Shown: in pieces, positions 1 to 24,224 of the stretch
Numbering within the stretch: position 1 is the stretch's first letter
How the letters are laid out: each line of letters starts with the position of its first letter
Position numbers and translations under genes: made by a program
The notes under the pieces: model-generated
What the model was told of the DNA's origin: nothing
The model's input: only the letters and a program-made list of their open reading frames with translations
Databases searched by the model: none
IMG/VR virus record: IMGVR_UViG_3300050821_010409
Coordinates: 1 to 30,159 of that record
DNA length: 30,159 nucleotides
Source: a virus
Taxonomy: Duplodnaviria; Heunggongvirae; Uroviricota; Caudoviricetes
Strand: one strand, 5' to 3'

Positions 1-120
1 AGGTCATTGCCAGCGCGGGACTGGCCGCAGGCACGGGCACGTCCCAGCCCCCGGGAGCGCAGGTCATTGCCAGCGCGGGACTGGCCGCAGGCACGGGCGC
101 GTCCCAGGCCCCGGGAGCGC
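1..120 (+). repeat. Near-perfect 60-bp tandem repeat encoding the 20-aa unit
   Basis: 1-60 and 61-120 both begin aggtcattgccagcgcgggactggccgcaggcacgggc and differ at only a few positions. Confidence 0.9.
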
Positions 121-4107: not shown

Positions 4108-4257
4108 TGGCTGGCTGTCGATCTGTGGCAGCAGGAAGGGGAGGCATAAGGCACATCTACGCTGGCTGGCTGAGCGGATAGGGCGGCACGCATGGGGTGG
4201 CTGGCTGTAGTCGCTTGGCTGCAGGGCCGCTGAGGCTGGCACGTGTCTCATGGCTGG
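4108..4257 (-). ncRNA. TIGR-like dual-repeat array A (~4 units)
   Basis: + strand alternates tggctggct / 9 nt / tggc(a,t,g)gc, e.g. tggctggct gtagtcgct tggctgc. RNA sense is AGCCAGCCA / UGCAGCCA. Confidence 0.65.
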
Positions 4258-4289
4258 TCGTTTTACGGAACGGGGAAGAGTGAGGCGTG

Positions 4290-4400
4290 ATGGTCATCAA
4301 GGTAAGGACCGGGCTAACGCGGGGCGTGCTGACGACGCAGAACTGCCCGGCCCTCGTGCCGGTGGACAACGTGAAGTCGGGCTGCCCCCGCGGCCGGTGA
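4290..4400 (+). CDS. Possible 36-aa micro-ORF between arrays A and B
   Basis: ATG at 4290 after purine-rich ggggaagagtgagg; MVIKVRTGLTRGVLTTQNCPALVPVDNVKSGCPRGR. Confidence 0.3.
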   Translation: MVIKVRTGLTRGVLTTQNCPALVPVDNVKSGCPRGR

Positions 4401-4422
4401 GCCATGACGGTCAGGGAGTCTT

Positions 4423-4624
4423 CGGCTGGCTGACCGGCGGTGGCTGCCGTCTTCTGGCTGGCTCATCTGGTTCGGCTGCTGGTCCTTGGCGGGCAAGCGA
4501 TCTCGGGCTGCTGGTCCTTGGCGGGCAAGCGATCTCGGGCTGCTGGTCCTTGGCGGGCAAGCGATCTCGGGCTGCTGGTCCTTGGCTGACTCGCGTCCCT
4601 GGGCTGCTGTTTCTTTGACTGGCT
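4423..4624 (-). ncRNA. TIGR-like array B (~6 units, strict 32-nt period)
   Basis: 9+9+7+7 nt units. It includes three identical 32-bp copies of ggctgctggtccttggcgggcaagcgatctcg at 4474-4569 plus a partial fourth to 4586. Confidence 0.75.
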
Positions 4625-4636
4625 ACCTGCGGCCGT

Positions 4637-4651
4637 TATACTGCAGCATAC
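4637..4651 (+). promoter_or_regulatory. Phage promoter/operator motif KATACYGNNNNAKAC (copy 1 of 8)
   Basis: TATACTGCAGCATAC upstream of RBS aaggagg and ATG 4669. Other copies: 5778-5792(-), 9968-9982(+), 10227-10241(+), 10761-10775(+), 17061-17075(-), 19758-19772(-), 23792-23806(-). Confidence 0.6.
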
Positions 4652-4668
4652 AGCAAGAAGGAGGGCAC

Positions 4669-4929
4669 ATGGCACGGCTGCCAAGCGGGCGCTACCTTGC
4701 CCAGCACGCGGGCGACGACGTGATCGTGTTCGAGGAGGGCACTGAGCGCGAGGTCATGCGCGTCCCGCTGGTCTTGCGGGGAGGCGACGGCAGCGTCACG
4801 GTCAACAAGGACGGGATTGCCGAAGCGCAGGCTGTCATCTACCACAGTGAACTGGGCGACGAAGACCGGGCATTCGCGCATTTCTGGTGCGGGTACTTCT
4901 ATGCGCACGCTGCCAGGGATACCGTTTAG
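4669..4929 (+). CDS. Hypothetical protein (86 aa)
   Basis: RBS gaaggagg then ATG 4669. The longer 4486 start lies inside array B and is rejected. Confidence 0.75.
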   Translation: MARLPSGRYLAQHAGDDVIVFEEGTEREVMRVPLVLRGGDGSVTVNKDGIAEAQAVIYHSELGDEDRAFAHFWCGYFYAHAARDTV

Positions 4930-4943
4930 CCCAGGAGGTCACG

Positions 4944-5591
4944 ATGGCCAAGGCCCCGAAGGCCCCGCTTGCCGCGCATGCCGGCCGCACGCCTGCGCAA
5001 GTGGCCGCCGGGAAGAAGTTCGCCGCTGCCGGCCGTAAGGCGCAGGCTACCGCCCGGGCCCGGGGCAAGAAGCCGTCCGCTGCCCAGAAGCAGGCGGCGC
5101 TGAAGTGGGCCGCGGCGGGCCGGGCAGCGCAGGCGGCCAAGCGCCAGGGCAAGGTCCCGGTGCAGAAGGCCGCGGCCGTCGCTCCCGTCCAGCCTGCGGT
5201 CCTGCCCGGCTGGTGGCTGCTGGGCTGCAATGACGAGGCGCCCACGTGCGCGGCCACGGCAGTGGCCAACCACCTGCTGGCCGTCACGGGCCTGGCGCTG
5301 ACTGCGCAGGAGGTCGCGCGGCTGCACGCGATGGCCGGGGGCGAGGACGGCGCCGGCATCGCTGACGTGCTGGACGTGCTGCTGGCTTGGTCACCTAGGG
5401 CAGATGTGCGCCTGGTGTCGGCCAGGCGCGCTGACGAGGCCATGATCGTGCCTGGCCTCGTCGTCGGCGTCAGCCTGCCGCACGCGCGCCATGCCGTGCT
5501 GTCCCACCCGCGGGGGATGGTCAGCTGGGGGCGCGTGATGCCCTGGACCGGGGTGCCGGATGAGGCGTGGGCACTGGAGTGGGCGGCCTAG
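4944..5591 (+). CDS. Lys/Ala-rich N-terminus fused to a papain-like cysteine peptidase-like domain
   Basis: RBS aggagg before ATG 4944. TCAATAVANHL (Cys), RHAVL (His) and SWG echo the motifs of 10822..11808. Confidence 0.6.
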   Translation: MAKAPKAPLAAHAGRTPAQVAAGKKFAAAGRKAQATARARGKKPSAAQKQAALKWAAAGRAAQAAKRQGKVPVQKAAAVAPVQPAVLPGWWLLGCNDEAPTCAATAVANHLLAVTGLALTAQEVARLHAMAGGEDGAGIADVLDVLLAWSPRADVRLVSARRADEAMIVPGLVVGVSLPHARHAVLSHPRGMVSWGRVMPWTGVPDEAWALEWAA

Positions 5592-5599
5592 TGCCACAA

Positions 5600-5722
5600 T
5601 GGCTGGCCCTGGGTCAACGGCTGAACAGGCATGGCTGGCTTCGCCTGCGCGCAGAGGCAAGAGAACTGCGACATGTCCCTGGCGGCACGATCGTGTTGGC
5701 TGGCCTTGGATCAATGGCTGCA
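5600..5722 (-). ncRNA. TIGR-like array C (~3 units), preceded on the - strand by a 14-bp hairpin and a promoter motif
   Basis: tggctggcc ctgggtcaa cggctga acaggca tggctggct ... tggctggcc ttggatcaa tggctgca. Inverted repeat at 5726-5739/5769-5782; motif copy at 5778-5792(-). Confidence 0.7.
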
Positions 5723-5802
5723 AAGGAGACGACTGGCCTTCAGCGAAGAGAGCCGGGAAGGCGGGCGCAGGCCAGTCGTCTCTCGCAGTATAGTATCAGC
5801 TC

Positions 5803-5961
5803 GTGGCTGACGACGTTCCTGACCCGCTGACGATGCTGCAGGCGTCCGCCGTGGCCCAGCACGAGATGTACCTGGCCTGGGTGATGGCAGGCTTCACCAC
5901 GGAGCAGTCCATGGAGCTGGTGTCGACCGTGATCTACGCGATGATCATGAAGGCGGCGTGA
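5803..5961 (+). CDS. Small hypothetical phage protein (52 aa)
   Basis: GTG 5803, MADDVPDPLTMLQASAVAQHEMYLAWVMAGFTTEQSMELV..., resembling small actinophage proteins with an AGFTxEQA-type motif. Below the ORF-track length cutoff. Confidence 0.65.
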   Translation: MADDVPDPLTMLQASAVAQHEMYLAWVMAGFTTEQSMELVSTVIYAMIMKAA

Positions 5962-5989
5962 ATGACTGCTGTAGCGTACGGTAAAGCTC

Positions 5990-6592
5990 ATGGTAACGGG
6001 TCGTCGCACGTGGCTGCCAGGAATCAAGGATGGCCGCGTGGAGCTGCCTGAGCGCCATTACCAGCTGGTGCGCGGGCTGAAGTCAGGGCGCGAGCTGTGG
6101 AAGCGCCATCCGCACGTCCGGACCGGGCAGGAACTGACTTTTGGCGAGCGCGCTGCGGACGTGATGCGAAACGCCTTCGGGTCGTGGGCGTTCGTTGGCA
6201 GCTTCCTGGCCTTCATGGGCGCCTGGATGGCGTTCAATTCACTGTTCCTGCGCGGGCACGGGTTCGATAAGTACCCGTACATCCTGCTGAACTTGTGCTT
6301 GTCGATGATGGCCGGCTTGCAGGGAGCGCTGATCCTGATCGCGGCCAAGCGGGCTGACCGGGTCTCAGCAGAGCAGGCGCTCGCGCATTACAGCGAGACG
6401 GGAAAGCTGGACGCGCTCCTGACCGTCAATAATGAGATGACGGCGCGGATCGAGGCAGCCAGCGCGCTGCTGACGGAAATTCACCGTCATGTTACCGCGA
6501 TGACGCCAGGAGCGGGCGCGTTCTCCCCAGGGCACGAGCCCGGGCAGGAGCCAGCATCGCGCCGTGATCCCGGGAGCGCTGACTGTGACTGA
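5990..6592 (+). CDS. DUF1003-family membrane protein
   Basis: TFGERAAD...FGSWAF...FDKYPYILLNLCLSMMAGLQGALILIA matches the DUF1003 signature. Confidence 0.8.
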   Translation: MVTGRRTWLPGIKDGRVELPERHYQLVRGLKSGRELWKRHPHVRTGQELTFGERAADVMRNAFGSWAFVGSFLAFMGAWMAFNSLFLRGHGFDKYPYILLNLCLSMMAGLQGALILIAAKRADRVSAEQALAHYSETGKLDALLTVNNEMTARIEAASALLTEIHRHVTAMTPGAGAFSPGHEPGQEPASRRDPGSADCD

Positions 6593-7010
6593 CCTTGCCG
6601 CTATCCGCACCGCCCTGGCCGCCCGGATTACCACGGGCACGGGACTGCGCGCCCTGCCGGAAGCCCGTGACCAGGTCAGCCCGCCGGTGGCCGTGGTGCT
6701 GCCCGGCCAGCCCGTGGTGACCTACGGCGCCACCGTGGACGGCGCCTTCACCGTGAACCTGCGGGTGCTGCTGCTGCTCAGCGACGGGGCGCCGGTGGAG
6801 AAGGTGCAGCGCGCGCTGGATGCCTACCTGGGCATCGGCGTGGATGACAGCGTCCCGGCCAGCATCGCCGGCGCCATCCAGGAGGACCCGACGCTGGGCG
6901 GCGCCGTGCACTTCGCCGTGCCGCTGGCCGCTGACAGCTACGGGCGGGTGGACTATGCCGGGGTCACCTATTTCGGGGCCCGCCTGTCGATCCAGGCAGG
7001 GGCGCTGTAG
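6585..7010 (+). CDS. Tail terminator / tail completion protein
   Basis: GTG 6585 overlaps the upstream stop. LAAIRTALAARI...PPVAVV...IAGAIQEDPTLGG...YFGARLSI is typical of actinophage tail terminators. Confidence 0.75.
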   Translation: MTDLAAIRTALAARITTGTGLRALPEARDQVSPPVAVVLPGQPVVTYGATVDGAFTVNLRVLLLLSDGAPVEKVQRALDAYLGIGVDDSVPASIAGAIQEDPTLGGAVHFAVPLAADSYGRVDYAGVTYFGARLSIQAGAL

Positions 7011-7052
7011 CCCGGCACAGCGCGGCGCAGTCTGACGCAGTATGCTAACGTC

Positions 7053-7436
7053 ATGAATCCCGTGCTTGATGACGTCCTGGCGGCGCTGCGGCAATCCTGG
7101 ATACGGGAGACCAGCGCCTTCCCGGACCGGTGGACGCCCGGGAACCCTGCGTGCGGGCAGTGCACGGTATCGGCCCTGGTGATCCAGGACTATGCCGGCG
7201 GCGACCTCGTGCGGTTCCTTGTCGTTGACGCCGGCATGGACATGCGGCACACGGTGAACCGGCTGCCCGGCGGCATGCTGCTCGACGCCACCGCCAGCCA
7301 GTTCGCGTCCGTCCCGGTGTACGTGCCGCGGGCGCCGGAGACCCGCGCGGCGGCACTGGAACGGCAGGACATGGCCGTGCGCTACGCCATCTTGAGCGAG
7401 CGGGTGGAGCGCTGGCTGGAGGAAGAGGCATCGTGA
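7053..7436 (+). CDS. YunG-like protein (Cys-His-Asp fold)
   Basis: SWIRETS...WTPGNPACGQCTVSALVIQDYAGG...HTVN...DATASQF. Possibly leaderless after TATGCT at ~7040. Confidence 0.7.
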   Translation: MNPVLDDVLAALRQSWIRETSAFPDRWTPGNPACGQCTVSALVIQDYAGGDLVRFLVVDAGMDMRHTVNRLPGGMLLDATASQFASVPVYVPRAPETRAAALERQDMAVRYAILSERVERWLEEEAS

Positions 7437-7705
7437 GCCAGCCCTGGCACGGCATCGTGATCGAGGTCACTGGCGATGAGGCCACTGTTGACCTGCGCCG
7501 GGAGGGCAGCGTGAGCATGGTGGCAGAGGTGGAGCTGGCCCGGTGGGGCTTGCACGACGTGATGCCGGGTGACGTCCTGGTGCTGGACACCGACGCGGGC
7601 ACCGTGACGCGCCTGGAGCTGCCTGCCTGGACGCAGCAGGAGCTGGACGCCGTTCACGAGCGCGCCCGTGAGATGGCCGCCTGGTTTGAGGAGAACGTGC
7701 AATGA
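7433..7705 (+). CDS. Hypothetical protein
   Basis: 4-nt overlaps with both neighbours and GC3-rich codons. Confidence 0.7.
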   Translation: MSQPWHGIVIEVTGDEATVDLRREGSVSMVAEVELARWGLHDVMPGDVLVLDTDAGTVTRLELPAWTQQELDAVHERAREMAAWFEENVQ

Positions 7706-8226
7706 CCCTGGACACACGCGTGTACGTGATCAGCAAGGTGGACTACCGGGCCGTGTGGGTAGCGTGCAACCGGCTCATCGGCGCTCACGAGGGCATCAAG
7801 TTCACCGATGAGGGCGGTTACATCGGGAACAAGCCCGGCCAGGGGCTGCTCGCGCTGCTGGACGTTCACTATGGCACGGACGCGCCACTGGTTGCCGAGG
7901 GCGGCCACCACCGGTACTGCGAGCCTGATGACGAGGACGCGCGCCACCGGCGCTGCTTCCCGCACTGGCTGGAGGCCTCCTTCGACACGCCGTACGGCTA
8001 CCGGGACTCCGACGGCAATGGCTGCGGTGACCTGCACGCCCGCCTGGTCGCGGAGCTGGGCCAGTGGCTGGACGGCCAGGGCGCCCGCTGGGCCTGGGAG
8101 AACGAGTTCACCGGCGAGGTGCATGAGGGCTATGAGGGCCTGACGGACCTCGCCCGCGGGGGCGCGCAGGCGACCCAGTGGTACCGCACGATCGTCGCTC
8201 CGGCCCTCGGGCTGCCCGCTTCGTGA
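7702..8226 (+). CDS. Hypothetical protein
   Basis: ATGA overlap with the upstream gene and GC3-rich codons. Confidence 0.75.
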   Translation: MTLDTRVYVISKVDYRAVWVACNRLIGAHEGIKFTDEGGYIGNKPGQGLLALLDVHYGTDAPLVAEGGHHRYCEPDDEDARHRRCFPHWLEASFDTPYGYRDSDGNGCGDLHARLVAELGQWLDGQGARWAWENEFTGEVHEGYEGLTDLARGGAQATQWYRTIVAPALGLPAS

Positions 8227-8331
8227 GCGACGACCTGCGCAAAGACGCGGGCGCGTTCCTGTATGGGTACAGGTGCTTAACCGGGGTGCCAAGTCTTGTT
8301 TTTTACACCCAGGACTAGGTAATCTCCGTGT

Positions 8332-8871
8332 GTGAAACGAGTTCAAATCCCGGTTACCTGGGATATGCACAAGCGGTTCGAGGCCAAGCTGCTGCCAGGG
8401 CCACCATCACCGGATGAGGATTTGTGCCCGGGACCTTGCTGGGCCTGGTCAGGCGCGCACTTCCAGAAGACAGGTTACGCTCTGTTCAATGTTAAGTGCG
8501 GAGACGGGAAGTGGCGGCCAACGACAGCGCACCGGATTGCCTGGCGGCTGTACCGTGGCGAGTTCGATCCTGAGCTGGAACCTGATCACCTGTGCCGTAA
8601 CCGGGCCTGCGTGAACCCTTGGCACGGCGACCCGGTGACCCGGTCAGTCAACATGCTCCGCGGGATGCACCCGACTGCTATCCTGGTTCGCGAGAACAAG
8701 TGCCCGCAAGGGCATGAATTCACGGAAGCTAATACCATCCTGCGCAAAAATGGCAAGAGGGAATGCCGGGCATGCGCTCAGGCGCGGGATAACGCCAGGA
8801 ATGCAAGTGGTGCCCGCAAGGATCATTACCGAAAGATGTACCTGCAGCGTAAACAGCGGAAATCGCTGTGA
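8332..8871 (+). CDS. HNH homing endonuclease (His-Me finger plus C-terminal Zn domain)
   Basis: CWAWSG...GY...AHRIAW...DHLCRNRACVNPWH...N, followed by CPQGHEF...RECRAC. GC is lower than in neighbouring genes. Confidence 0.9.
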   Translation: MKRVQIPVTWDMHKRFEAKLLPGPPSPDEDLCPGPCWAWSGAHFQKTGYALFNVKCGDGKWRPTTAHRIAWRLYRGEFDPELEPDHLCRNRACVNPWHGDPVTRSVNMLRGMHPTAILVRENKCPQGHEFTEANTILRKNGKRECRACAQARDNARNASGARKDHYRKMYLQRKQRKSL

Positions 8872-8887
8872 AGGAGGTGATGCCAAC

Positions 8888-15650: not shown

Positions 15651-16581
15651 AGATGTGGCAGTCCACCACGACCAGCCACGCGTCATCGGGCAGGCTGTCC
15701 ACGTAGGCGTTGGCCGCGCGCAGGTAGGCAGCCCGGTCGTCCGGGCCGTCGTCACTCATGCCGAACCAGCCCATCGTGCCTGGCGCCATCCACTCGCCGT
15801 CGGTCGTGAGCAGCGCGTAGCCGGGCACGGCCTGGTCCCGCTGCCGCCGTGCGTGCTCGTCCTCGCTGACGGAGAACACCTCCAGCACGTCCTTGCTGGA
15901 CCACCGGAACGGGCTGCCCTCCGCATTGAGTCGTGCCACCCGCAGCTGGCTGTGGTACTCCTGCCGCGCGCGCTCGATGGTGTAGCCGCTGCCCTCGCTG
16001 ACCATGCCGGCGAAGACGCTGAACGGGACCGCTTCTGGCAGTCCTGCCACCAGGCCCTGGTACTCGCGGTACAGCGTCCTGGCCTCGTCTTCCGCATCCT
16101 GGCGCACCTTCTCCAGGTCCAGCGCGCGCTTGGGGCCGCCATCGCAGCCGAAGAACGGGAACTTCTCCGGTGAGCTCCACGACTGCTCTGGCATCAGGAC
16201 TTCGCCAGCGTGCCCGGGCTTGTAGCGCAGGGAACCGCCCCACCGGCCGCCGACGGTGTACCAGTCCCACTTGGACTGCTGGTTGCGCGTGGACATCATG
16301 TAGGCCCGGTCGGTGTCCTCATCAAGGAACAGATGGTCGCCTTCATCGTCGGCACCCTGGCAGTACGCGACATTGACCGCGTCCGCGACCTGCTGCCAGG
16401 TCAGCGGGCCGTCTGGGAGCTTGCCCTCAGCGCGCAGGCTCTTCACGGCCCAGTGCTCCTCGGGCAGGCCGTCTTCATAGCTGCGGTATGGCGCTGCTTC
16501 CCTGTTCTCGTCGTACGGCGCGAGCATCTCGCTCAGCTGGCCAGGGTCTTCCAGGCAGGCCAGCACGATGAAGTGCGTCAT
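15649..16581 (-). CDS. Conserved hypothetical phage protein (KWDWYxxGGRW motif)
   Basis: MTHFIVLA...SKWDWYTVGGRWGG...DGEW...MGWFGMS...VVVDCHI; overlaps the upstream stop. Confidence 0.8.
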   Translation of the reverse strand: MTHFIVLACLEDPGQLSEMLAPYDENREAAPYRSYEDGLPEEHWAVKSLRAEGKLPDGPLTWQQVADAVNVAYCQGADDEGDHLFLDEDTDRAYMMSTRNQQSKWDWYTVGGRWGGSLRYKPGHAGEVLMPEQSWSSPEKFPFFGCDGGPKRALDLEKVRQDAEDEARTLYREYQGLVAGLPEAVPFSVFAGMVSEGSGYTIERARQEYHSQLRVARLNAEGSPFRWSSKDVLEVFSVSEDEHARRQRDQAVPGYALLTTDGEWMAPGTMGWFGMSDDGPDDRAAYLRAANAYVDSLPDDAWLVVVDCHI

Positions 16582-16796
16582 GCCGCGCCCTCCTCGTTCC
16601 TGACTGCCTCAGTGATGAGCCGGACCTGGCGCCGCTCCAGGGCCATGTGCAGCAGTTCCGGTGCGGACCAGGCGATCTCGTCAAGCACCCGCTGGACTTC
16701 CTTGCCTTCCAGGCGCACGTGCAGGTTGTCCTCTAGCGAGAACCCGAGCGTGGAGCCGGTGGCGCTTACGTGCTTCAGGCCACGGTGGACGATCAT
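16578..16796 (-). CDS. Hypothetical protein (72 aa)
   Basis: ATG 16796 overlaps the stop of 16793..17041 (ATGA). Confidence 0.7.
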   Translation of the reverse strand: MIVHRGLKHVSATGSTLGFSLEDNLHVRLEGKEVQRVLDEIAWSAPELLHMALERRQVRLITEAVRNEEGAA

Positions 16797-17041
16797 GCCC
16801 TGTCCCCTCCTGCCTTCTCTTCCGGGACGCCGGTGAGCCACCGGAGCTGCACGACGGGGCCGTCCTCGTCGTATTCCGTGATGGCAGTGAGCTCCGCGGT
16901 GCCCGGGATGCCCTCGCTTGCCAGGAACGCCGGCAGTTCCGCCGCCGTGATGCCACCGGGCAGCGTGGCGCGCTCCTCCTGCACCCAGCGGTCACCCGAC
17001 CAGTACTGGGGCTTGAAGCCGTCAGGCCATCGCGTTGTCAT
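16793..17041 (-). CDS. Hypothetical protein (82 aa)
   Basis: RBS aaggacgagg; motif copy 17061-17075(-) upstream. Confidence 0.75.
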   Translation of the reverse strand: MTTRWPDGFKPQYWSGDRWVQEERATLPGGITAAELPAFLASEGIPGTAELTAITEYDEDGPVVQLRWLTGVPEEKAGGDRA

Positions 17042-17089
17042 GGCCTCGTCCTTTCTTGGTGTCTGATGCAGTATAACTCATCGGGGCAC

Positions 17090-17748
17090 GGGCTGGCTAC
17101 TTCGCCGCGCGTGCCAGGAGGCTGCTGGCTGGCCACTTCGTCTTGGCTGCATGGTTGGCTGAGTTCTGCTGGCCGCGCGGGGCACGCGTACCTTGGCTGG
17201 CTGTAAACCCGTGGCTGCAGGACACCGGCACGCTGGCTGGCTCAGGTCGTATGGCTGCATGCCCTGGCTGCGGGATGATGGCTGGCTCGTATATCCTGGC
17301 TGCGGCTCCGCATCGTTGGCTGACCGTCACTCAGGGCTGATGTACCGTGGCTGGCTAATGCCCCCTGGCTGCAGGTCGTGTGCATCATCATGATGGCTGG
17401 CAAGCGTCCGATGGCTGCTCGTCTAGTGTGGCTGACTGGTGGTCATGTGCATCATCATCATCATCATCATCATCATGGCAGGCAGGCGTTCCATGGCTGC
17501 GCGTTTACTGCGGGCTAGCTCATGATCCCGATGGCTGGCACACGTTCAAGGGCTGCATTTTTGTCCTGGCTGGCTAACGCCCCCTGGCTGCGGGTTCATG
17601 ACTGGCTAGTTGCTCCTTGGCTGCCGGCACCGGTACGTTGGCTGGCTGACACTGAGTGGCGGCATGGCGTCGTTGGCTGGCTAACGGTCATTGGCTGCGG
17701 GTTCACGGCGGCATGGCGTGGTTGGCTGGCTAGTGGTCACGGGCCGCA
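17090..17748 (-). ncRNA. TIGR-like array I, the largest (~18 units)
   Basis: About 650 bp of alternating tggctggct / tggctgc repeats filling the gap between the 17752 stop and the 17061-17075 motif. Confidence 0.85.
17450..17476. repeat. (CAT)9 microsatellite inside array I
   Basis: Nine perfect CAT copies; a related (CAT)3 lies near 17382. Confidence 0.95.
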
Positions 17749-17751
17749 AGG

Positions 17752-18330
17752 TTACTCATCGTCGTCTTCCCGGAGCTGCGCCAGGAACTCCTCGTTGCCC
17801 GGCAGTGCCGCCAGCGGCCAGCGTGCCGTGCGGGCGCACGGGTAGTACCCGTGGTTGCCGCCTGGCTCGCTACGGCTAGCGAACCGGCCCAGGTCGTGCG
17901 GCTGCTTCTGGAAGCCCCGGTACACCTCGAACAGGCCGTCTCCGTCGAGGTCGATGACGTAGCCCCACTCAGCGAACAGCGAGTCCAGCGGGAAGTCGCG
18001 GGCGTCCTCAATGACCCCCGCTGCCAGCATCAGGCCCGGCTCCCCTTGCGTGGCGCGCAGCAGGACGTACCAGTCGCGCAGGCTCCCGGTGCCCACGCCC
18101 TGGTCCGCGAAGCCGGCGAGCCGGGCGACGTCTTCGTCTGTGGGCGCGCTGCCCGGGCTGGCGACCTGCAGGGCAGCTGCCTGCTGGCGCAAGGCCGCCG
18201 GGTCCTTGGCCGCTTCCCGCAGCCACCCTAGCACCGCCAGGCCCAGGCCATCAGGGTAGCTGTCCCAGTGGTTGTAGGCCGTCTTCTCCTCGTCGTTCAC
18301 GGCGAAGGTGATGAATCCTCGTGTTCCCAT
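17752..18330 (-). CDS. Conserved hypothetical protein (MGTRG...YNHWDSYP family)
   Basis: RBS aagagaagg and GC3-rich codons. Confidence 0.8.
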   Translation of the reverse strand: MGTRGFITFAVNDEEKTAYNHWDSYPDGLGLAVLGWLREAAKDPAALRQQAAALQVASPGSAPTDEDVARLAGFADQGVGTGSLRDWYVLLRATQGEPGLMLAAGVIEDARDFPLDSLFAEWGYVIDLDGDGLFEVYRGFQKQPHDLGRFASRSEPGGNHGYYPCARTARWPLAALPGNEEFLAQLREDDDE

Positions 18331-18349
18331 GCCTTCTCTTTCTTTCCGC

Positions 18350-18538
18350 TCAGGACCTGCTGGCCGTCAGTCCCGCCAGGAGCCGGAGCAGGTCCGTCAT
18401 GCGCACCTCGATGGCGCCATGCGTGCCGCCCTGGGAGCCGATGATGAAGACGCGGGCCGTGACTGTGCCCGGCTCGTGGTTCACCTCCAGCTTCATCAGG
18501 TCGTGTGCGCCTGTCCCGTAAGCTTTCCAGGTGTTCAC
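18350..18538 (-). CDS. Hypothetical protein (62 aa)
   Basis: GTG 18538 overlaps the DUF932 stop (GTGA); MNTWKAYGTGAHDLMKLEV... Confidence 0.6.
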   Translation of the reverse strand: MNTWKAYGTGAHDLMKLEVNHEPGTVTARVFIIGSQGGTHGAIEVRMTDLLRLLAGLTASRS

Positions 18539-19689
18539 GCCAGTGCCGCTTCCCTTGCCAGCGCTGCCGCCTTCGCCTTCAGCGGCTCGGCCTTGAGCAG
18601 GTTGCGGTTCAGCCGGCTCTCCCAGGAATTCGCGCGCCGCGCCCAGTCCAGGTACTCGCCAGCCGCCTGCACCAGCCCGTACGCGGTGCCGCCGATGCCA
18701 GCGCCTTCCACGGTCGGCCCGTTCAGGAAGCCGAGCACGGCCGCGCGCGCCGTCTCGATGTTGGCCATCACCCGGTCTGAGACGATGCCGTCCGGCGGGG
18801 CCGGGATGAACTCGCGCAGCCACAGCTGCTGCTGCGCCGGGGTCACCGCGATCCCGAGCAGCCCGCTCATCACCTCGGTGTACTCCCGCGCCTCGTTGCG
18901 GGCGAACTGCAGGGCCTCGCGAGCCTCGGTGACCCGGTCCCGCCAGTCCCCGCGGTGGCTGAAGGAGAAGACCGCGCCGGTGCGCTCGCCCTCGGCCTCA
19001 GCGAGTGAGTAGGTGTTCCCGCACACGATCCTGACCTCGGTCAGCCGCGCCGCGCAGCTGGCCTTCCCGGTGTGGTCACTGGTGACGCCCAGGTACGGGA
19101 AGCTGTAAGACGCGTCAATGCGCCCGCGGGCCGTTACCTGGTGCGGCTCGTCCAGCCGGGCCAGCATCCAGACCCGGCGCCCGCCGTCCAGGCAGCCCCC
19201 GGTCTCCAGCTTGACCGTGCTGTCAGACCCGGTGACGGCGTCGATGATCTCGCCGAAGTCGCTGTTCGGGATGAGCCTGTAGGAAGCGCGCTGGTATGAC
19301 AGCGTGGCCCCGGTGTCGCTGCGGGCGATCCGGCGCCACTGGTCACTGTCGTCAGCGGCGCTGTCCACGATCTCGGCGACCAGGGGGCCGAACACGACCA
19401 CGTCATTGACAGGGCGCCGGAAGGATTCTAGCCACAAGCTGGTGACGTCGCTGGCCAGTTCATCAGCGCTCAGCTCCCCGCGGGACATGATGAGGTCCCG
19501 GGCGCGCTCGCGGAACTGGGCCGCGGTCATCACCTGCTCGCTGGTCACCGGGTAGGCGACGGGGTCCCAGTCCAGCCCGGCCAGGGCCCGGGCCTCGGCG
19601 AACGTCTGCGGGTAGTCGTCGGTGACGATGCCCTCCCGGTGCCAGGGCACCTGGCGGACGGAGAACATGGCATCTACGTTTGCTGGCAT
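18535..19689 (-). CDS. DUF932 / TIGR03299-like phage-plasmid protein
   Basis: MPANVDAMFSVRQVPWH...AGLDW...ETGGCLDGGRRVWMLA...RIVCGNT; motif copy 19758-19772(-) upstream. Confidence 0.85.
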   Translation of the reverse strand: MPANVDAMFSVRQVPWHREGIVTDDYPQTFAEARALAGLDWDPVAYPVTSEQVMTAAQFRERARDLIMSRGELSADELASDVTSLWLESFRRPVNDVVVFGPLVAEIVDSAADDSDQWRRIARSDTGATLSYQRASYRLIPNSDFGEIIDAVTGSDSTVKLETGGCLDGGRRVWMLARLDEPHQVTARGRIDASYSFPYLGVTSDHTGKASCAARLTEVRIVCGNTYSLAEAEGERTGAVFSFSHRGDWRDRVTEAREALQFARNEAREYTEVMSGLLGIAVTPAQQQLWLREFIPAPPDGIVSDRVMANIETARAAVLGFLNGPTVEGAGIGGTAYGLVQAAGEYLDWARRANSWESRLNRNLLKAEPLKAKAAALAREAALA

Positions 19690-19832
19690 TGCCAAGCGCT
19701 TCTTTCTCCTGTGCCGCGCAGCGTGCCCCGGAGCTTCCCGGATCGGCTGCGCTAAGTGTCTGTTACAGTATATAACGCAATGACGGCAAGGTCTATTCCG
19801 GATGGTAAGAAGATATTTTTCGAATAAATGTT

Positions 19833-20135
19833 CTAGTAATGTAAGCGCCAGCGCAGGTTGCTGAATGAGTCATCCAGCTTGCCGCCTGGGCCGTGCCGGG
19901 CACGGCGCCCGCGGCCTGGTTCGCTGAAGGCCTCCAGCACGAGGCGCGCGACGGTGAACGCCCGGGCACGGCCGTACTTATGCAGGCGCACGAACCGGTA
20001 CCCGGCGGAGTTAACCTGTGGCGCGAGCAAGCCGCCGTGCGCGGAGGGCCGCGCCAGTGAGTACACCTGGCCATGGCTGCTGACCTCATACCATCCCTGG
20101 TAGCCGGGGACAGGCCGCCACAGCTCATCGCACAC
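19833..20135 (-). CDS. NUMOD4 domain with a degenerate HNH motif
   Basis: ELWRPVPGYQGWYEVSSHGQV (NUMOD4); VARLVLEAF...RHGPGGKLDDSFSNLRW. Confidence 0.8.
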   Translation of the reverse strand: MCDELWRPVPGYQGWYEVSSHGQVYSLARPSAHGGLLAPQVNSAGYRFVRLHKYGRARAFTVARLVLEAFSEPGRGRRARHGPGGKLDDSFSNLRWRLHY

Positions 20136-20198
20136 TTAACAGGCTAGCTGGTGTACCCTGCCGGTAACATGCCGCGGCCCTGACCGGAGCCGGCTCGC

Positions 20199-21044
20199 TC
20201 AGTCCTGACGGAGCAGCCAGTGGCCACGGAACCGCTTGGTGCGCATCATGCACTCGCGGCAGCCCGTCGTCCCCCGCTCTGGGTGCACGATCCTGTTAGC
20301 CCCGGCCAGCCGGTGCCCGAGCGGGCAGTCAGGTGGGCGCCACGTGGGAATGATCCGGGCGTTCGCGTGCGTGATGACCAGGGCAGTGAACGCCTCGTCA
20401 TCGATCTTCCCGCTAGCCCAGGTGGCCCAGCTGCTGGCCAGTGCAGTGTATTCGTCCTCGCTGGCGCCCCGGGCTACCCAGCCCTGATTGATCTTCGTCA
20501 GCGGGCTGCGGGCCAAGTTGACGCCTGGCGTTACCGCTTCCAGGTGCAGCGGGTTCTGGCACCTGCGGTGCAGGCAGGACGCCAGCCCCCTGCACGAGCC
20601 ATCCCGGTTGTGGCAGGCATGGTCGATCCAGAAGCCGGCTGCGATCAGCCCGGTGGCCAGCTCCCAGCCCGCAATGTGCGCGGAGACGCCCTGACCATCC
20701 CAGTGAAGTTGCCCGTAACCAGTCGTGCTGACAATCGTTCCCGTCCAGGGCCAGCACTCCCCAGCCGTGCGCCGGTCAACGCCTGCGTAATACCGCACGT
20801 CATCGGGCGCCGTCTTCAGCGTCGTCAGTTCTGTCGTGCCCTGGAAATACTGCCGGTAATAATGCCTCTTGCACAGCCCTTTACCCATGTAGTCGTCAGA
20901 GCACTGCCCACCAGCCGCTGCCGTGCACGTTCGGTCAGGCACGGCTTTTTGCGGAAGCGTGCCAGCTTCCTTCCGGCGCTTGTAGCAGGCACCGCACAGC
21001 CCGCGGCGCGGCGGCCTGTCACGACCGCAATCAGTACAGATCAC
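20199..21044 (-). CDS. HNH endonuclease with N- and C-terminal Zn-binding modules
   Basis: CWPWTG...GYG...AHIAGW...DHACHN...CQNPLHLEAVT...N; CTDC..CGAC; CPLGH..CREC. Start uncertain (21044, 21062 or 21119). Confidence 0.85.
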   Translation of the reverse strand: MICTDCGRDRPPRRGLCGACYKRRKEAGTLPQKAVPDRTCTAAAGGQCSDDYMGKGLCKRHYYRQYFQGTTELTTLKTAPDDVRYYAGVDRRTAGECWPWTGTIVSTTGYGQLHWDGQGVSAHIAGWELATGLIAAGFWIDHACHNRDGSCRGLASCLHRRCQNPLHLEAVTPGVNLARSPLTKINQGWVARGASEDEYTALASSWATWASGKIDDEAFTALVITHANARIIPTWRPPDCPLGHRLAGANRIVHPERGTTGCRECMMRTKRFRGHWLLRQD

Positions 21045-21139
21045 ACTGGTATAGTATCGCATGTCACAAGGTATGTGACACCCGAGGCCGTGCACGGAGC
21101 CGGGTCCTTCGCAACACATAGCGTAAGGAGTCAGCTACA

Positions 21140-21574
21140 GTGAGTCGGATCCACGGAAGGAATGGCATCGCGTACGTCGGCGTGAATCCCGCCGACCTCG
21201 CCAGTCCCATGGCTTTCTTGTCGGACTGGAGCATCAATTTTGTCGTTAACAAAGTCGACGTAACCTCCATGGGCGACCAGAACCTCATCTGGGTCGCCGG
21301 GTTGCCCGACGCTTCCGGTGACTTCACCGGGTTCTACGACACGGCCACGGCGCAGACGTACGTGGCGGCCACTGACGGCCTGCCGCGCAACTTCTACCTC
21401 TACCCGAGCACGCTCGGCGTGCAGGGGTCCGCACCGGGCCAATACTTCTTTGGCCAAATCCTCCCTGATTTCAGCGTCGCGGGCGGCGTGGCGGCAGCCG
21501 TGAGCCTGAAGAGCACCTGGAACGCTGCGACGCGCATTCAGCGTTATCCAACTGTAGGCATAGCCGGAACCTGA
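21140..21574 (+). CDS. Major tail (tail tube) protein
   Basis: IHGRNG...DWSINF...VDVTSMGD...GLPDASGDFTGFYD...YFFGQI, upstream of the chaperone and tape measure genes. Confidence 0.75.
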   Translation: MSRIHGRNGIAYVGVNPADLASPMAFLSDWSINFVVNKVDVTSMGDQNLIWVAGLPDASGDFTGFYDTATAQTYVAATDGLPRNFYLYPSTLGVQGSAPGQYFFGQILPDFSVAGGVAAAVSLKSTWNAATRIQRYPTVGIAGT

Positions 21575-21611
21575 TAACTGTGAAGAGCGTAATTATGCGG
21601 TATCGTGCAGC

Positions 21612-22328
21612 ATGGCTCAAGAGACATGCTCAATCGAAGGCTGCGCGAATTCGCATTACGCTCGCGGCTGGTGCGCTGCGCACTGGCAGCGGAACCGGCG
21701 CTACGGAGATCCCCTGGGCGGAGGGCCGATGCGCCAGCCGCCCAGGGAGTGCTCCGTGGAGGGCTGCACCCGTCCCTACAGCGCCAAGGGCTTGTGCAGC
21801 ATGCACTACTACCGGGCGAAGGCAAACAACGGGGAAGCAGGAGGGGCCAGGCCACGTAAGAACGCCGGCTCTCGCAAGCCCAGCCAGCCGCGTCTGTGCG
21901 AAGTCGAAGGCTGCGGTTCTCTTCACTACGGCCGCGGATTCTGCCTTCGGCACTACCAGCGCTGGAAGGACTACGGGGACGCTAATGAGCCGTTGCGCCG
22001 TGGCCAGAACGGCTCAGGTCACCGGGGCGTCAACAACCAGGGCTACGTCGTGCTCAAGTACGGCAAGTGGACCATCCTGGAGCACCGTGCCGTCGCGGAA
22101 GTCAAGCTCGGCCGCAGGCTCTACCCATTCGAGAACGTGCACCACGTCAACGGCATCAAGACCGACAACCGGCCCGAGAACCTGGAGGTCTGGGTGAAGG
22201 TGCAGCCAACAGGCCAGCGCCTGGAAGACCTGATCACCTTCGTCACGCAGTACTACCCGAATGAGGTCCAGGCGGTCCTGGGTCGCGCGCGGGCGCTGAC
22301 CAGGGCCGAGCTAACGGGCTCCGCATAA
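21612..22328 (+). CDS. HNH endonuclease with three CxxxxC...CxxH Zn repeats
   Basis: CSIEGC..CAAH, CSVEGC..CSMH and CEVEGC..CLRH; EHRAVAE...VHHVNGIKTDNRPENLE. Confidence 0.9.
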   Translation: MAQETCSIEGCANSHYARGWCAAHWQRNRRYGDPLGGGPMRQPPRECSVEGCTRPYSAKGLCSMHYYRAKANNGEAGGARPRKNAGSRKPSQPRLCEVEGCGSLHYGRGFCLRHYQRWKDYGDANEPLRRGQNGSGHRGVNNQGYVVLKYGKWTILEHRAVAEVKLGRRLYPFENVHHVNGIKTDNRPENLEVWVKVQPTGQRLEDLITFVTQYYPNEVQAVLGRARALTRAELTGSA

Positions 22329-22455
22329 CTGAACAGTTCAGGAAAACGGCCAGGCGAGCACGGCGCTCGTGCCCGCCTGGCCACCCTCTCCCCCAGTGCG
22401 ACGCTGGGGTATCACGCAGTCTACATCATCAGATCCTGATACGGGACGGACCACG

Positions 22456-22782
22456 ATGACAGCACGGAAGATCACCCGCGACAGCGGCGACGCCACGGAC
22501 TTTGACGAAACGCGGCGGCTGCTGTACATGGCACTGCTGGTCAACGAGACCAAGCGGTTCAACCTTGCCGCGACCCTGGTCAACGCACTCGCGCACCATC
22601 ACCTAGTCACGGACCTGACGGTCGCGGAGATCACCCGGCACGTGGTGAACGCAACGCGCGGCATCGACAACGCCACCGGATCGGACCTGGAGGAGAACGA
22701 GGCCCGGCAGGAAGGCGTTGCCTGGATCCAGAAGCAGATTGACCGGATCACTGCTGAGCTAGGAGATGGTCCTGGTGCCTGA
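22456..22782 (+). CDS. Hypothetical protein (108 aa)
   Basis: ATG 22456 after gggacgga; GC3-rich codons. Confidence 0.65.
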   Translation: MTARKITRDSGDATDFDETRRLLYMALLVNETKRFNLAATLVNALAHHHLVTDLTVAEITRHVVNATRGIDNATGSDLEENEARQEGVAWIQKQIDRITAELGDGPGA

Positions 22783-23416
22783 GGCAGAGGCCGACTACAC
22801 GATCGACTGGGATGAGCCGGTCCCGGCCGTCACGCTCCCCCCGCCGCGGCCGGCCAAGGCCCAGGCTGCCATCCCGGCCAAGGCTGACCGCGCGCTGGCC
22901 CGGGTCCAGGCCACTGCCGCGGAGAAGAACCTGCAGCCGCCCGACGACGACGATGAGGTCACGACCGGGAGCGTCATCGCTTCGGGTGACCGCGTCACGC
23001 TGCTCGGCCAGGAGTTCCGGGTCTCAGAGCGGATCGGCCTGATGCCGCTGCTGAAGTTCGCCTCTGCCTCGGACGTGGACACCCAGGATCCGCGGGCGCT
23101 GGCTGCCATGTACACCATGCTGCGCGACTGCATTTACGAGGGGTCGCCGGGCTGCGGGGAGTGCGAGCACTGCGAGGCGCGCAACGAGACGGCCTGCAAA
23201 GCCTACGAGAGGGGTGACTGGAGCAGGTTCGAGGAGCACGCGATGGTCACCAAGGCCGATGCTGACGACCTGATGGGCGTGGTCTCCAAGGTGCTGGAGA
23301 TCGCGTCCGGGCGCCCTACCCCGCCGCGTGGTGGCTCACCCGCTACTGCGCGCAGAACGCGGGCCGGCTTGACGGCGAGCGGCTCCGCCACGCGGAAGCG
23401 GGGATCGAGGCGCTGA
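22766..23416 (+). CDS. Tail assembly chaperone (gpG-like); start may be GTG 22775
   Basis: IGLMPLLKFA...LAAMYTMLRDCI...DWSRF...DDLMGVV...GRPT; located between tail tube and tape measure genes. Confidence 0.75.
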   Translation: MVLVPEAEADYTIDWDEPVPAVTLPPPRPAKAQAAIPAKADRALARVQATAAEKNLQPPDDDDEVTTGSVIASGDRVTLLGQEFRVSERIGLMPLLKFASASDVDTQDPRALAAMYTMLRDCIYEGSPGCGECEHCEARNETACKAYERGDWSRFEEHAMVTKADADDLMGVVSKVLEIASGRPTPPRGGSPATARRTRAGLTASGSATRKRGSRR

Positions 23417-23655
23417 GCCCGCGCCAGCTGCTCAACTTCGCTTACGCCCTCATCACTAGCGAGATGACGGGGGAGGAAGCGGAGAAGTTCGAGGAGGACA
23501 TCGGCATGAGGACCAGCCCGGAGGCGGTGGCGCTGGCCGCGCTGCGGGCGCACCAGGAGGCCAGCGGGATGGCCTTCGATGACCCGGACGCGCCGGTTGC
23601 CGCCCCGCTGGGCAGCCGGGACGAGGAGATCCCGGGAGCGTGGATGGGACGGTGA
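23314..23655 (+). CDS. gpT-like -1 frameshift extension of the tail assembly chaperone
   Basis: The -1 frame from C-CCT-ACC (23314-23320) reads PYPAAWWLTRYC...GIEALSPRQLLNFAY... to TGA 23655, with no convincing start of its own. Confidence 0.6.
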   Translation, partial: PYPAAWWLTRYCAQNAGRLDGERLRHAEAGIEALSPRQLLNFAYALITSEMTGEEAEKFEEDIGMRTSPEAVALAALRAHQEASGMAFDDPDAPVAAPLGSRDEEIPGAWMGR

Positions 23656-23678
23656 GGCGCACGGGGATCTCCTCGTCC

Positions 23679-23792
23679 CGGCTGGCTGATGTCGCCTGGC
23701 TGCATGCGGGCGGCAGGGCGCACTGGGACCTTGGCTGGCTGATGTCACCTGGCGGCACGCGGATCACGGCTGGCCGTGGAGCACTGGCTGTG
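23679..23792 (-). ncRNA. TIGR-like array J (3 units) with an upstream promoter motif and a downstream 20-bp hairpin
   Basis: cggctggct gatgtcgcc tggctgca ... tggctggct gatgtcacc tggcggca cgcggatca cggctggcc gtggagcac tggctg; motif at 23792-23806(-). Confidence 0.75.
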
Positions 23793-23825
23793 TATTACCG
23801 AGTATAGCAGGACGGAGGGAACGGC

Positions 23826-24224
23826 ATGGACGTGCGGCTGGACGACGCGGCCATCACCGCCCTGCTGGACGACGAGCACGGCATGGTCGGCCGGTACCTG
23901 CAAGACCTGGCGGACCAGGCGGCGGCCGTCGCGCGGGCCCGGGTCCCTGTGCGCGCCACGCCGTCCTGGAGCGCGCGCAGCAACGCCCGGCCGCCTGGCT
24001 TCACCAAGGCATCCGTGCACACCCGGATAGGGCACCGGTCCGGGGGGTCGCTGTGGGCCAGTGCCAACGCGCCCGCGGACCCGGCCGTCTTCCTGGAGTA
24101 CCCGCGGGAGGACCGCGTCAAGGAGCCGTTCCTGACCGTCGGCCTCTGGTCCCTGATCGGCCGGATCTTATGGCGCCCCTGTTGCGGCCTGAGGCGGGTG
24201 AACAGTAATGGCCACCCTCGGTGA
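23826..24224 (+). CDS. HK97 gp10-like tail component
   Basis: RBS ggaggg; G+VGRYL...AAAVAR...PV...G..KASV...AVFLE...PFL pattern. Confidence 0.65.
   Translation: MDVRLDDAAITALLDDEHGMVGRYLQDLADQAAAVARARVPVRATPSWSARSNARPPGFTKASVHTRIGHRSGGSLWASANAPADPAVFLEYPREDRVKEPFLTVGLWSLIGRILWRPCCGLRRVNSNGHPR

What the first reader, a model, noticed from the sequence alone, without database searches (positions are those of the whole stretch)
4108..23806. About 11 guide arrays (~70 units) dispersed over 20 kb but only one Tas gene in the window
Seen: the same dual-repeat pattern fills many large intergenic gaps (4108, 4423, 5600, 10118, 11899, 13063, 14059, 15030, 15342, 17090, 23679). Arrays C and J sit antisense inside the + strand structural region, each with a promoter-like motif just 5' on the - strand. 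Array D is flipped and co-oriented with + strand motifs. Inference: orientation follows transcription rather than genome polarity, favouring RNA function. Satellite arrays may be independently expressed guide cassettes served in trans by one TasA, which would be an unusually large distributed guide repertoire.
Basis: partly seen in the sequence, partly recalled or inferred. Interest (0 to 1): 0.8.

Follow-up and report, generated by a model that had tools for sequence, protein, structure and literature searches.

The report
Scattered TIGR guide arrays, single TasA

Summary
On the minus strand a 9-nt edge repeat (AGCCAGCCA) alternates with an 8-nt loop repeat (UGCAGCCA). They fill ten intergenic gaps between 4108 and 23793, and a small flipped fragment lies at 10118-10189. 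I count 107 repeats and 34 strict edge-spacer-loop-spacer-edge units, against none on the plus strand.

The gene at 12137-13033 (-) is a solo-Nop TasA. Its model matches the Nop part of TasR with Z 18.9, and its family profile hits TasR at E 2.5e-12. It is the only Tas gene in the 122-kb contig. Arrays abut it on both sides, and a strong terminator follows the downstream array.

Two related phages keep the same repeats in the same gaps with mostly different spacers. All three phages have a small array antisense to the tail genes, just downstream of a conserved TATACT box.

This is a TIGR-TasA system with three departures from the published pattern:
- The arrays are interleaved with genes and scattered.
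- Units of 32 and 35 nt are mixed, because spacer A is 6 or 9 nt.
- The edge repeat starts with AG, not UG.

The satellites are short and more degenerate than the core arrays. This scan has noted scattered TIGR guides in other phages before.

The parts
12137..13033 (-). tasA: 298-aa solo Nop-domain TIGR-associated protein with an acidic insert at about residues 108-141
   Evidence: The AlphaFold2 model has mean pLDDT 86.7. The top Foldseek hits are TasR 9mty and TasH, E 2e-6. VIA-align gives Z 18.9 and rmsd 2.1 A over 188 residues to TasR residues 110-319, so the nuclease part is not covered. The family profile hits TasR at E 2.5e-12 and TasH at 2e-9. It also matches PHROG 4285 'transposase'. 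It is the only match in the contig.
13063..13483 (-). Array F, directly upstream of tasA: 12 edge and 10 loop repeats, the best preserved array
   Evidence: It ends 30 nt before the tasA start codon.
11898..12136 (-). Array E, starting right after the tasA stop codon: 5 edge and 5 loop repeats
11842..11877 (-). Intrinsic terminator closing the tasA/array operon: 16-bp stem followed by a U tract
   Evidence: It folds at -40.3 kcal/mol, z -7.3.
14059..14284 (-). Array G, interrupted by a 24-nt conserved element at 14146-14169. A lone edge repeat lies at 14486-14494.
15030..15189 (-). Array H: 5 edge and 4 loop repeats
   Evidence: Two of its spacers recur, with at most one change, in the syntenic array of the related phage L036.
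15401..15634 (-). Array I, with weaker repeats down to 15293. The 24-nt element lies at 15364-15387.
17090..17748 (-). Array J, the longest: 16 edge and 13 loop repeats. It is irregular and holds an (ATG)9 run at 17450-17476.
4108..4259 (-). Satellite array A, antisense, just after the head-tail adaptor gene
   Evidence: The adaptor gene is annotated.
4423..4624 (-). Satellite array B, antisense. It includes 3.5 identical 32-nt copies of a degenerate unit.
   Evidence: Weak TATGCT/TATAAC boxes lie upstream on the - strand at 4635-4650.
5600..5722 (-). Satellite array C, antisense. The 24-nt element sits inside it in the opposite orientation (5649-5672 +).
5787..5797 (-). GATACTATACT, a -10-like box upstream of array C, followed by a stable hairpin
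   Evidence: The hairpin folds at -35.5 kcal/mol, z -4.5.
10118..10189 (+). Fragment D: two loop-9 nt-edge halves on the + strand, between two + strand GATACTGTA boxes (9968 and 10227)
23679..23793 (-). Satellite array K, antisense, between tail-module genes
   Evidence: Its counterparts are in L036 and L039.
23801..23806 (-). TATACT -10-like box 8 nt upstream of array K, conserved as TATACT in L036 and as TATACTCGG in L039
23614..23683 (-). 20-bp hairpin directly after array K: a possible end of a cassette of about 180 nt, and a terminator for the + strand gene
   Evidence: It folds at -55 kcal/mol, z -5.5. It has no U tract.

Best explanation
This is a dual-repeat TIGR-TasA system of a large high-GC soil phage.

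**Shown**
- One nuclease-free Tas protein is encoded at 12137-13033 (-).
- It is flanked on both sides, and surrounded over about 6 kb, by arrays reading edge AGCCAGCCA, spacer A (6 or 9 nt), loop UGCAGCCA, spacer B (9 nt).

**Inferred from the published family**
- The core arrays E to J are transcribed with the - strand operon, from TATACT-type promoters near 21058, 19772 and 17075 down to the terminator at 11842-11877.
- The transcript is cut within the edge repeats into guides of 32 or 35 nt.
- Each guide is held by a TasA dimer.
- The two spacers pair with opposite strands of a DNA target. Because TasA has no nuclease, the complex binds and blocks, for example by repressing transcription, and does not cut.
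- Targets are probably in the host or in rival mobile elements, because none was found in the phage itself.

**Inferred, at about 50-60% for C and K and less for A, B and D**
- The small arrays 8-10 kb away are separate short transcription units, read antisense to the structural genes from their own promoters, and they feed the same TasA in trans.

**Array growth**
- The arrays appear to grow by local duplication of units followed by point mutation.
For: **Protein**
- The fold matches the Nop part of TasR and TasH (Z 18.9 and 18.8; Foldseek E 2e-6).
- The family profile matches them by sequence (E 2.5e-12 and 2e-9).
- The aromatic-basic pair described for Tas helix alpha-4 (10.64898/2026.08.11.744272) aligns with a conserved His and Arg.
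- A homodimer through the N-terminal coiled coil (residues 6-64) is predicted with score 0.75, against 0.00 for the best of 3 controls. That mark was reached by 20 of 30 proteins solved as pairs of one chain and by 1 of 23 solved as single chains. The runs agree in at least 68% of contacts, and partner pLDDT is at least 74. Solved TasR and TasH dimers exist, so this pass may only reflect likeness to them.

**Arrays**
- Two alternating repeats of 9 and 8 nt both end in CCA.
- The loop starts with UG, and G is kept at position 2 of both repeats.
- Spacer B is fixed at 9 nt.
- All 34 strict units are on the tasA strand.
- Arrays abut tasA on both sides, and a terminator follows the last one.
- Periods of 32 and 35 nt are not multiples of 3, and no array shows a coding GC3 signal.

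**Comparison with relatives**
- L036 (Tas 89% identical) has 31 units forward and 0 reverse, in the same syntenic gaps. Flanking genes are 72-85% identical there, but the arrays align only as repeats.
- Few spacers are shared between the two phages.
- Distant Tas relatives carry their own CCA-ending repeats on the tas strand, in several sub-arrays.
- Satellite K and its upstream TATACT box are conserved in three phages.
- The KATACTNNA box occurs 7 times where 0.69 is expected.
Against: - There is no RNA evidence of any kind.
- Spacer A is only 6 nt in about half the units, and the loop's UG is weaker in those units (T 57%, G 57%). The published family is described as having 9-nt spacers of constant size within a locus and uniform 36-nt guides.
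- The edge repeat begins with AG, not UG.
- The satellites are short and degenerate, and array B is a recent triplication of a defective-looking unit.
- No target was found in the 122-kb contig.
- Whether the C-terminal tail holds a Tyr/His processing pair like Y289/H296 of SpTasH (PMC13421893) could not be settled.
Confidence: 0.8

Rival explanations
1. Only the core arrays next to tasA are working guides. The distant arrays A, B, C, D and K are decaying copies spread by recombination. They may be silent, or they may serve something other than guiding, such as -35-like promoter parts or antisense transcripts that modulate the structural genes.
For: - The satellites carry 2-6 mismatches per unit, whereas array F carries 0-2.
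- Array B is 3.5 identical copies of a unit whose loop ends in CCC.
- D has no complete unit.
- The L036 counterpart of K has shrunk to a single loop-spacer-edge half.
- The last repeat of array B overlaps the -35 box of a good + strand promoter (TTGACT, 16 nt, TATACT at 4615-4642).
Against: - K keeps its position, its orientation relative to its neighbours and its upstream TATACT box in three phages, and it is about 10 repeats long in L039.
- The loop-to-edge distance of 18 nt is kept even in D and K.
- L039 also has antisense arrays 8-10 kb from tas.
Confidence: 0.25
2. The GGCT-rich repeats act on DNA as iteron-like or operator-like binding sites for a phage protein, and the nearness of a Nop-domain gene is incidental.
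For: - Direct repeats of an asymmetric site spaced 14-18 bp apart in intergenic DNA are also typical of iterons and partition sites.
- Some repeats overlap promoter boxes.
- There are no RNA data.
Against: - The repeat plan matches the TIGR dual-repeat plan in length, alternation, the CCA ends and the 9-nt spacer.
- It travels with Tas homologues across clades whose repeats differ but always end in CCA on the tas strand.
- The arrays abut tasA and end at a terminator.
- Spacers turn over much faster than the repeats.
Confidence: 0.05
3. The arrays are transcribed but act in cis on the long operon RNA, as processing or punctuation sites between genes, or as decoys that titrate TasA. They would not be guides against other DNA.
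For: - The core arrays sit in nearly every gap of the - strand operon, between protein genes and tRNA-like RNAs.
- Neighbouring spacers are often near-copies of each other.
- No targets were found.
Against: - In tested TIGR systems the processed units guide DNA binding (PMC12045711; 10.64898/2026.09.09.750476).
- Spacers differ widely between arrays and between related phages, which is not expected of pure punctuation.
Confidence: 0.07

Closest known systems
Dual-repeat TIGR-TasA systems, such as FpTIGR of Flavonifractor plautii (Faure et al. 2025, PMC12045711)
   Same: - A solo Nop-domain Tas protein.
- Arrays of two alternating short repeats with two short spacers per unit.
- Repeats that end in CCA.
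- Arrays upstream and downstream of tas on the same strand.
- A terminator after the array.
- A phage host.
   Different: - Units are 32 or 35 nt, mixed within one array, not a uniform 36 nt.
- Spacer A is 6 or 9 nt.
- The edge repeat starts with AG.
- The arrays are split into at least 10 blocks interleaved with protein genes and tRNA-like RNAs.
- Some blocks lie 8-10 kb away, antisense to structural genes.
TaTasR (PDB 9MTY) and SpTasH (PDB 9W03, 9W04, 21KL), the solved TIGR effectors
   Same: They share the Nop and coiled-coil fold (Z 17-19) and sequence-profile homology. A coiled-coil dimer is predicted.
   Different: This protein has no RuvC or HNH domain. Its alignment starts at TasR residue 110 and at TasH residue 62-66. 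It has an acidic insert of about 35 residues in a beta hairpin. A Tyr/His processing loop was not identified.
Stem-loop TIGR-TasA of the Peromyscus leucopus gut contig (PMC12045711, section 9) and intragenic or flanking tigRNAs (10.64898/2026.09.09.750476)
   Same: In both, guides are split into several sub-arrays separated by other sequence, and guide position relative to tas is flexible.
   Different: Those units are hairpins without edge repeats, whereas here the units are classical dual repeats without stems. The published sub-arrays lie within a few hundred nt of each other.
Phage CRISPR mini-arrays and solitary repeat units
   Same: Both are short guide cassettes carried by a phage away from any effector gene, and each can be read as being served in trans.
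   Different: The repeat plan, the protein family and the targeting mode (two spacers on opposite DNA strands) all differ.
Stoperators of L5-type mycobacteriophages (from general knowledge)
   Same: Both are many copies of an asymmetric short motif scattered in intergenic DNA of an actinophage, with an orientation rule.
   Different: Stoperators are single 13-bp repressor sites that act on DNA. Here the motifs form tandem alternating arrays with fixed spacers, tied to a Tas gene.

Membership tests
TIGR-Tas (dual-repeat class) | A Tas protein with a Nop RNA-binding domain and a coiled coil | tested here: met
   VIA-align gives Z 18.9 and rmsd 2.1 A over 188 residues to TasR 9mty_B, and Z 18.8 to TasH. 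Profile E-values are 2.5e-12 and 2e-9. Pfam itself gives no hit.
TIGR-Tas (dual-repeat class) | Arrays of two distinct alternating repeats of 8-12 nt (edge and loop) | tested here: met
   The edge is 9 nt, with 83-100% conservation per position. The loop is 8 nt, with 74-100%. There are 34 strict units on one strand and none on the other.
TIGR-Tas (dual-repeat class) | Two spacers of about 9 nt per unit, of constant size within a locus | tested here: inconclusive
   Spacer B is 9 nt in 35 of 37 cases. Spacer A is bimodal, 6 nt in 12 cases and 9 nt in 12, within the same arrays. L036 shows 22 units of 32 nt against 4 of 35 nt.
TIGR-Tas (dual-repeat class) | Both repeats start with box D (UG) and end with box C (CCA) | tested here: inconclusive
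   CCA is present at the end of both repeats. The loop starts with UG (T 74%, G 89%). The edge starts with AG (A 88%, G 98%), so the G is kept but the U is not.
TIGR-Tas (dual-repeat class) | Arrays next to tas on the same strand, ending at a terminator | tested here: met
   Array F ends 30 nt before the start codon, and array E begins right after the stop codon. The terminator is at 11842-11877.
TIGR-Tas (dual-repeat class) | Repeats conserved and spacers variable between related loci; repeat sequence differs between Tas clades | tested here: met
   L036 has the same repeats with mostly different spacers. L038, L008, L016, L021 and L033 have other CCA-ending repeats.
TIGR-Tas (dual-repeat class) | Arrays transcribed and processed into unit-length tigRNAs bound by Tas | not testable with these tools
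TIGR-Tas (dual-repeat class) | A C-terminal Tyr/His processing loop (Y289/H296 in SpTasH, PMC13421893) | tested here: inconclusive
   The profile alignment to TasH stops at residue 278. The tail after the last helix has a conserved His and Tyr in the family consensus, but it is disordered in the model and could not be aligned.
TasA subtype (no nuclease) | Absence of an N-terminal RuvC or HNH domain | tested here: met
   Model residues 1-3 already align with TasR residue 110 and with TasH residue 62-66. The N-terminus is two long helices. There is no Pfam nuclease hit.

The most novel reading that the evidence does not exclude
The phage runs a distributed guide programme. One TasA is fed by guide sets that sit in different transcription units: the early or middle - strand operon, and small promoter-driven cassettes antisense to the late structural genes. 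The set of DNA sites that TasA binds would then change during infection. The mixed 32-nt and 35-nt units would represent two working guide geometries of one effector.
Probability: 0.15. Interest if true: 0.75.

Novelty: new variant of a known kind. Interest (0 to 1): 0.55.

Why it matters
TIGR-Tas is a young field. The natural targets, the regulation of the arrays and the way arrays gain spacers are all stated open questions (PMC12045711; 10.64898/2026.09.09.750476). This locus bears on three of them.

- **Where to look for guides.** The guides of one TasA can be spread through many intergenic gaps, and even placed antisense in the structural module behind their own promoter box. Surveys that search only beside tas will therefore undercount them.
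- **Guide geometry.** Units with a 6-nt and a 9-nt spacer A coexist in the same arrays in two phages. That gives a direct test of how much spacer length one effector tolerates.
- **Array growth.** Neighbouring spacers are closer to each other than to spacers of other arrays. This points to growth by duplication and mutation, not by uptake of foreign DNA.

The same phage is also reported by this scan to carry a Cas12 CRISPR system, which I did not check. If so, it would hold two RNA-guided systems.

Tried and rejected
**Searches that gave nothing**
- Megablast of 10000-24000 against GenBank phages found no match.
- Pfam on tasA and its neighbours gave no Nop hit.
- A single-sequence search of TasA against PDB found only a low-complexity hit. 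The family profile was needed to reach the Tas structures.
- Rfam at gathering thresholds gave no family anywhere in the window.

**Self-targeting**
- I searched both strands of the 122-kb contig for spacer A plus the reverse complement of spacer B, in both orders and without a gap.
- The 9+9 units gave 0 hits at up to 2 mismatches and 4 at up to 3 (shuffles gave 0-7). The 6+9 units gave 0 hits at up to 1 mismatch.
- I did not know the exact target geometry, so this is a weak negative.

**Tools and data not available**
- The rest of the L036 contig could not be searched because the record is not held.
- The 129-kb contig carrying P0025 gave no DNA.

**Readings rejected**
- Coding repeat: periods of 32 and 35 nt shift the frame, and there is no GC3 signal.
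- Sigma-54 promoter arrays: the GG/GC spacing does not fit (my reading of the sequence).
- Edge-like cluster at 55.9-56.75 kb of the contig: part of it has a 39-nt period inside an SNF2 helicase gene and reads as Gln-Pro-Ala repeats, so I do not count it as an array.

Full report
**Setting**

The window is the first 30 kb of a 122,432-nt viral contig that CheckV rates 81% complete. GC content is about 67%. A head-tail adaptor gene lies at 3156-4094 and a tape-measure gene starts at 24208, both on the + strand. A block of mostly unknown genes sits between them. In that block, the stretch from 12137 to about 21100 is read on the - strand.

**The observation**

- TGGCTGGCT occurs 33 times on the + strand and never on the - strand.
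- Read on the - strand, a 9-nt repeat AGCCAGCCA alternates with an 8-nt repeat UGCAGCCA.
- With one mismatch allowed, 61 edge and 46 loop repeats fall in eleven intergenic zones. The 40 hits elsewhere equal the shuffle background.
- A strict edge-spacer-loop-spacer-edge pattern gives 34 real units on the - strand and none on the + strand.
- The loop-to-edge distance is 18 nt in 35 of 37 in-array cases. The edge-to-loop distance is 14 or 17 nt, 12 cases each.
- Units are therefore 32 or 35 nt. Spacer B is 9 nt, and spacer A is 6 or 9 nt. Both unit lengths occur within the same array.
- These periods are not multiples of three, and the arrays carry no coding GC3 signal.
It is real but fragmentary.

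**The protein**

- The gene at 12137-13033 (-) has no Pfam hit, but it has 65 homologues in metagenomes.
- Its AlphaFold2 model has mean pLDDT 86.7.
- The top eleven Foldseek PDB hits are TIGR-TasR and TasH, followed by IS110-type bridge-RNA recombinases.
- VIA-align gives Z 18.9 and rmsd 2.1 A over 188 residues against TasR residues 110-319, and Z 18.8 against TasH from residue 66. Only the coiled coil and Nop domain are shared, and there is no room for a nuclease domain.
- A profile of the family hits TasR at E 2.5e-12 and TasH at 2e-9 by sequence.
- The protein is therefore a TasA, and it is the only Tas homologue in the contig.
- A coiled-coil homodimer is predicted with score 0.75, against 0.00 for the best of 3 controls. 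That mark was reached by 20 of 30 proteins solved as pairs of one chain and by 1 of 23 solved as single chains. The runs agree in at least 68% of contacts, and partner pLDDT is at least 74. Tas dimers have been solved, so this pass may only reflect likeness.

**Fit to the published family**

Faure et al. (PMC12045711) define TIGR arrays by these features:
- two alternating 8-12-nt repeats with 9-nt spacers;
- repeats that start with UG and end with CCA;
- a position upstream and/or downstream of tas;
- a terminator at the end of the array.

Here array F ends 30 nt before the tasA start codon, and array E begins right after the stop codon. A 16-bp terminator follows array E. Both repeats end in CCA, and the loop starts with UG.

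There are three departures:
- The edge repeat starts with AG.
- Spacer A is bimodal.
- The unit is 32 or 35 nt. The 2026 preprint (10.64898/2026.09.09.750476) describes a uniform 36-nt guide in dual-repeat systems.

In the 32-nt units the UG of the loop is also weaker.

**Relatives**

- L036 comes from a 110-kb contig whose Tas is 89% identical. It has 54 exact edge repeats forward and one reverse, and 31 strict units forward and none reverse. The units sit in the same syntenic gaps.
- Genes flanking those gaps are 72-85% identical, while the arrays align only as repeats.
- A few spacers are shared in syntenic arrays, and the rest differ.
- Relative to L036, the tasA module in the window is inverted with respect to the tail genes.
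- L039 (Tas 71% identical) has the repeat core 64 times forward and 11 times reverse over 19 kb.
- More distant Tas relatives have other CCA-ending repeats on the tas strand, in several sub-arrays.
- Dispersal is therefore a trait of this Tas clade.

**Transcription: sequence evidence only**

- A box KATACTNNA occurs seven times where 0.69 is expected.
- On the - strand it lies at 21058, 19772 and 17075 inside the operon, and at 5797 just upstream of satellite C.
- A TATACT box lies 8 nt upstream of satellite K.
- K is followed by a 20-bp hairpin of -55 kcal/mol.
- The K box and array recur in L036, reduced there to one loop-spacer-edge half, and in L039, where the array has about ten repeats. 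In all three phages the array is antisense to the tail genes.
- This is the best support for an independently transcribed cassette.
- Fragment D lies between two + strand boxes.

**Cautions about the satellites**

- Arrays A, B, C and K have 2-6 mismatches per unit, against 0-2 in array F.
- Array B is largely 3.5 identical copies of a unit with a defective-looking loop.
- The satellites may be decaying copies.

**Function**

TasA proteins have been shown to bind DNA under RNA guidance and to repress transcription (10.64898/2026.09.09.750476). By homology, that is the likeliest action here. No target was found in the phage's own contig, so the host or rival elements are the likely targets. This remains inference.

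**Array growth**

Spacers within an array are more alike than spacers from different arrays. The mean nearest-neighbour distance is 3.8 within arrays and 4.8 between them, in both phages. There are many near-duplicate neighbours and one exact triplication. This suggests growth by local duplication followed by mutation.

**Verdict**

This is a genuine TIGR-TasA system, and its kind is already known. It departs from the published pattern in its scattered arrays and its mixed unit lengths. Other reports of this scan describe scattered or distant TIGR guides in other phages. I did not check those reports.

Noticed in passing
14299-15023 (-): Three tandem elements of about 190 nt lie inside the TIGR locus. 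Each has a shared leader and a tRNA-like T-arm and acceptor end. Neither ARAGORN nor Rfam calls them. L036 and L039 have counterparts next to their arrays.
   Followed up: partly
5649-5672 (+), 14146-14169 (-), 15364-15387 (-): An identical 24-nt element (a palindrome plus a 5-bp hairpin) is embedded in arrays C, G and I. In C it runs opposite to the array. It is absent from the fetched relatives.
   Followed up: partly
4637, 9968, 10227 (+); 5797, 17075, 19772, 21058 (-): A promoter-like box KATACTNNA occurs 7 times where 0.69 is expected. It is often extended to GATACTGTAAGAGAC, and the same motif precedes arrays and tRNA-like elements in L039.
   Followed up: partly
12137-21100 compared with L036:4182-10832: The whole tasA module is inverted relative to the tail genes when compared with the related phage L036. 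HNH endonuclease genes sit at the junction (20199-21119 - and 21612-22328 +).
   Followed up: partly
15220-15320 (-) and 14540-14610 (-): Two similar elements of about 90 nt each start at a TACAAC/TACAAT box, and each precedes a block of arrays or tRNA-like RNAs.
   Followed up: no
17450-17476: A perfect (CAT)9 microsatellite, ATG on the - strand, lies inside array J.
   Followed up: no
1-3058 (+): 60-nt periodic repeats occur in two very GC-rich ORFs (75-79% GC). They probably encode Ala/Gly/Pro-rich repeat proteins.
   Followed up: no
G000:C1 55900-56750 (+), also 37469-37501 (-), 43750 (-), 47410 (+): There are further edge-like repeats outside the window. One is an irregular intergenic cluster at about 55.98-56.2 kb on the + strand. 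Another is a 39-nt periodic stretch inside an SNF2 helicase gene that reads as Gln-Pro-Ala repeats. There are also isolated one- or two-unit hits.
   Followed up: partly
10284-10356 (+): ARAGORN calls a tRNA-Ile inside the ORF 10221-10748, but Rfam does not confirm it.
   Followed up: no
13063-13483 and the L036 arrays: Neighbouring spacers are often one to three changes apart, for example the AGCTACTAC / AACTACCAG / AACTACCGG series. This suggests units multiply by tandem duplication.
   Followed up: partly
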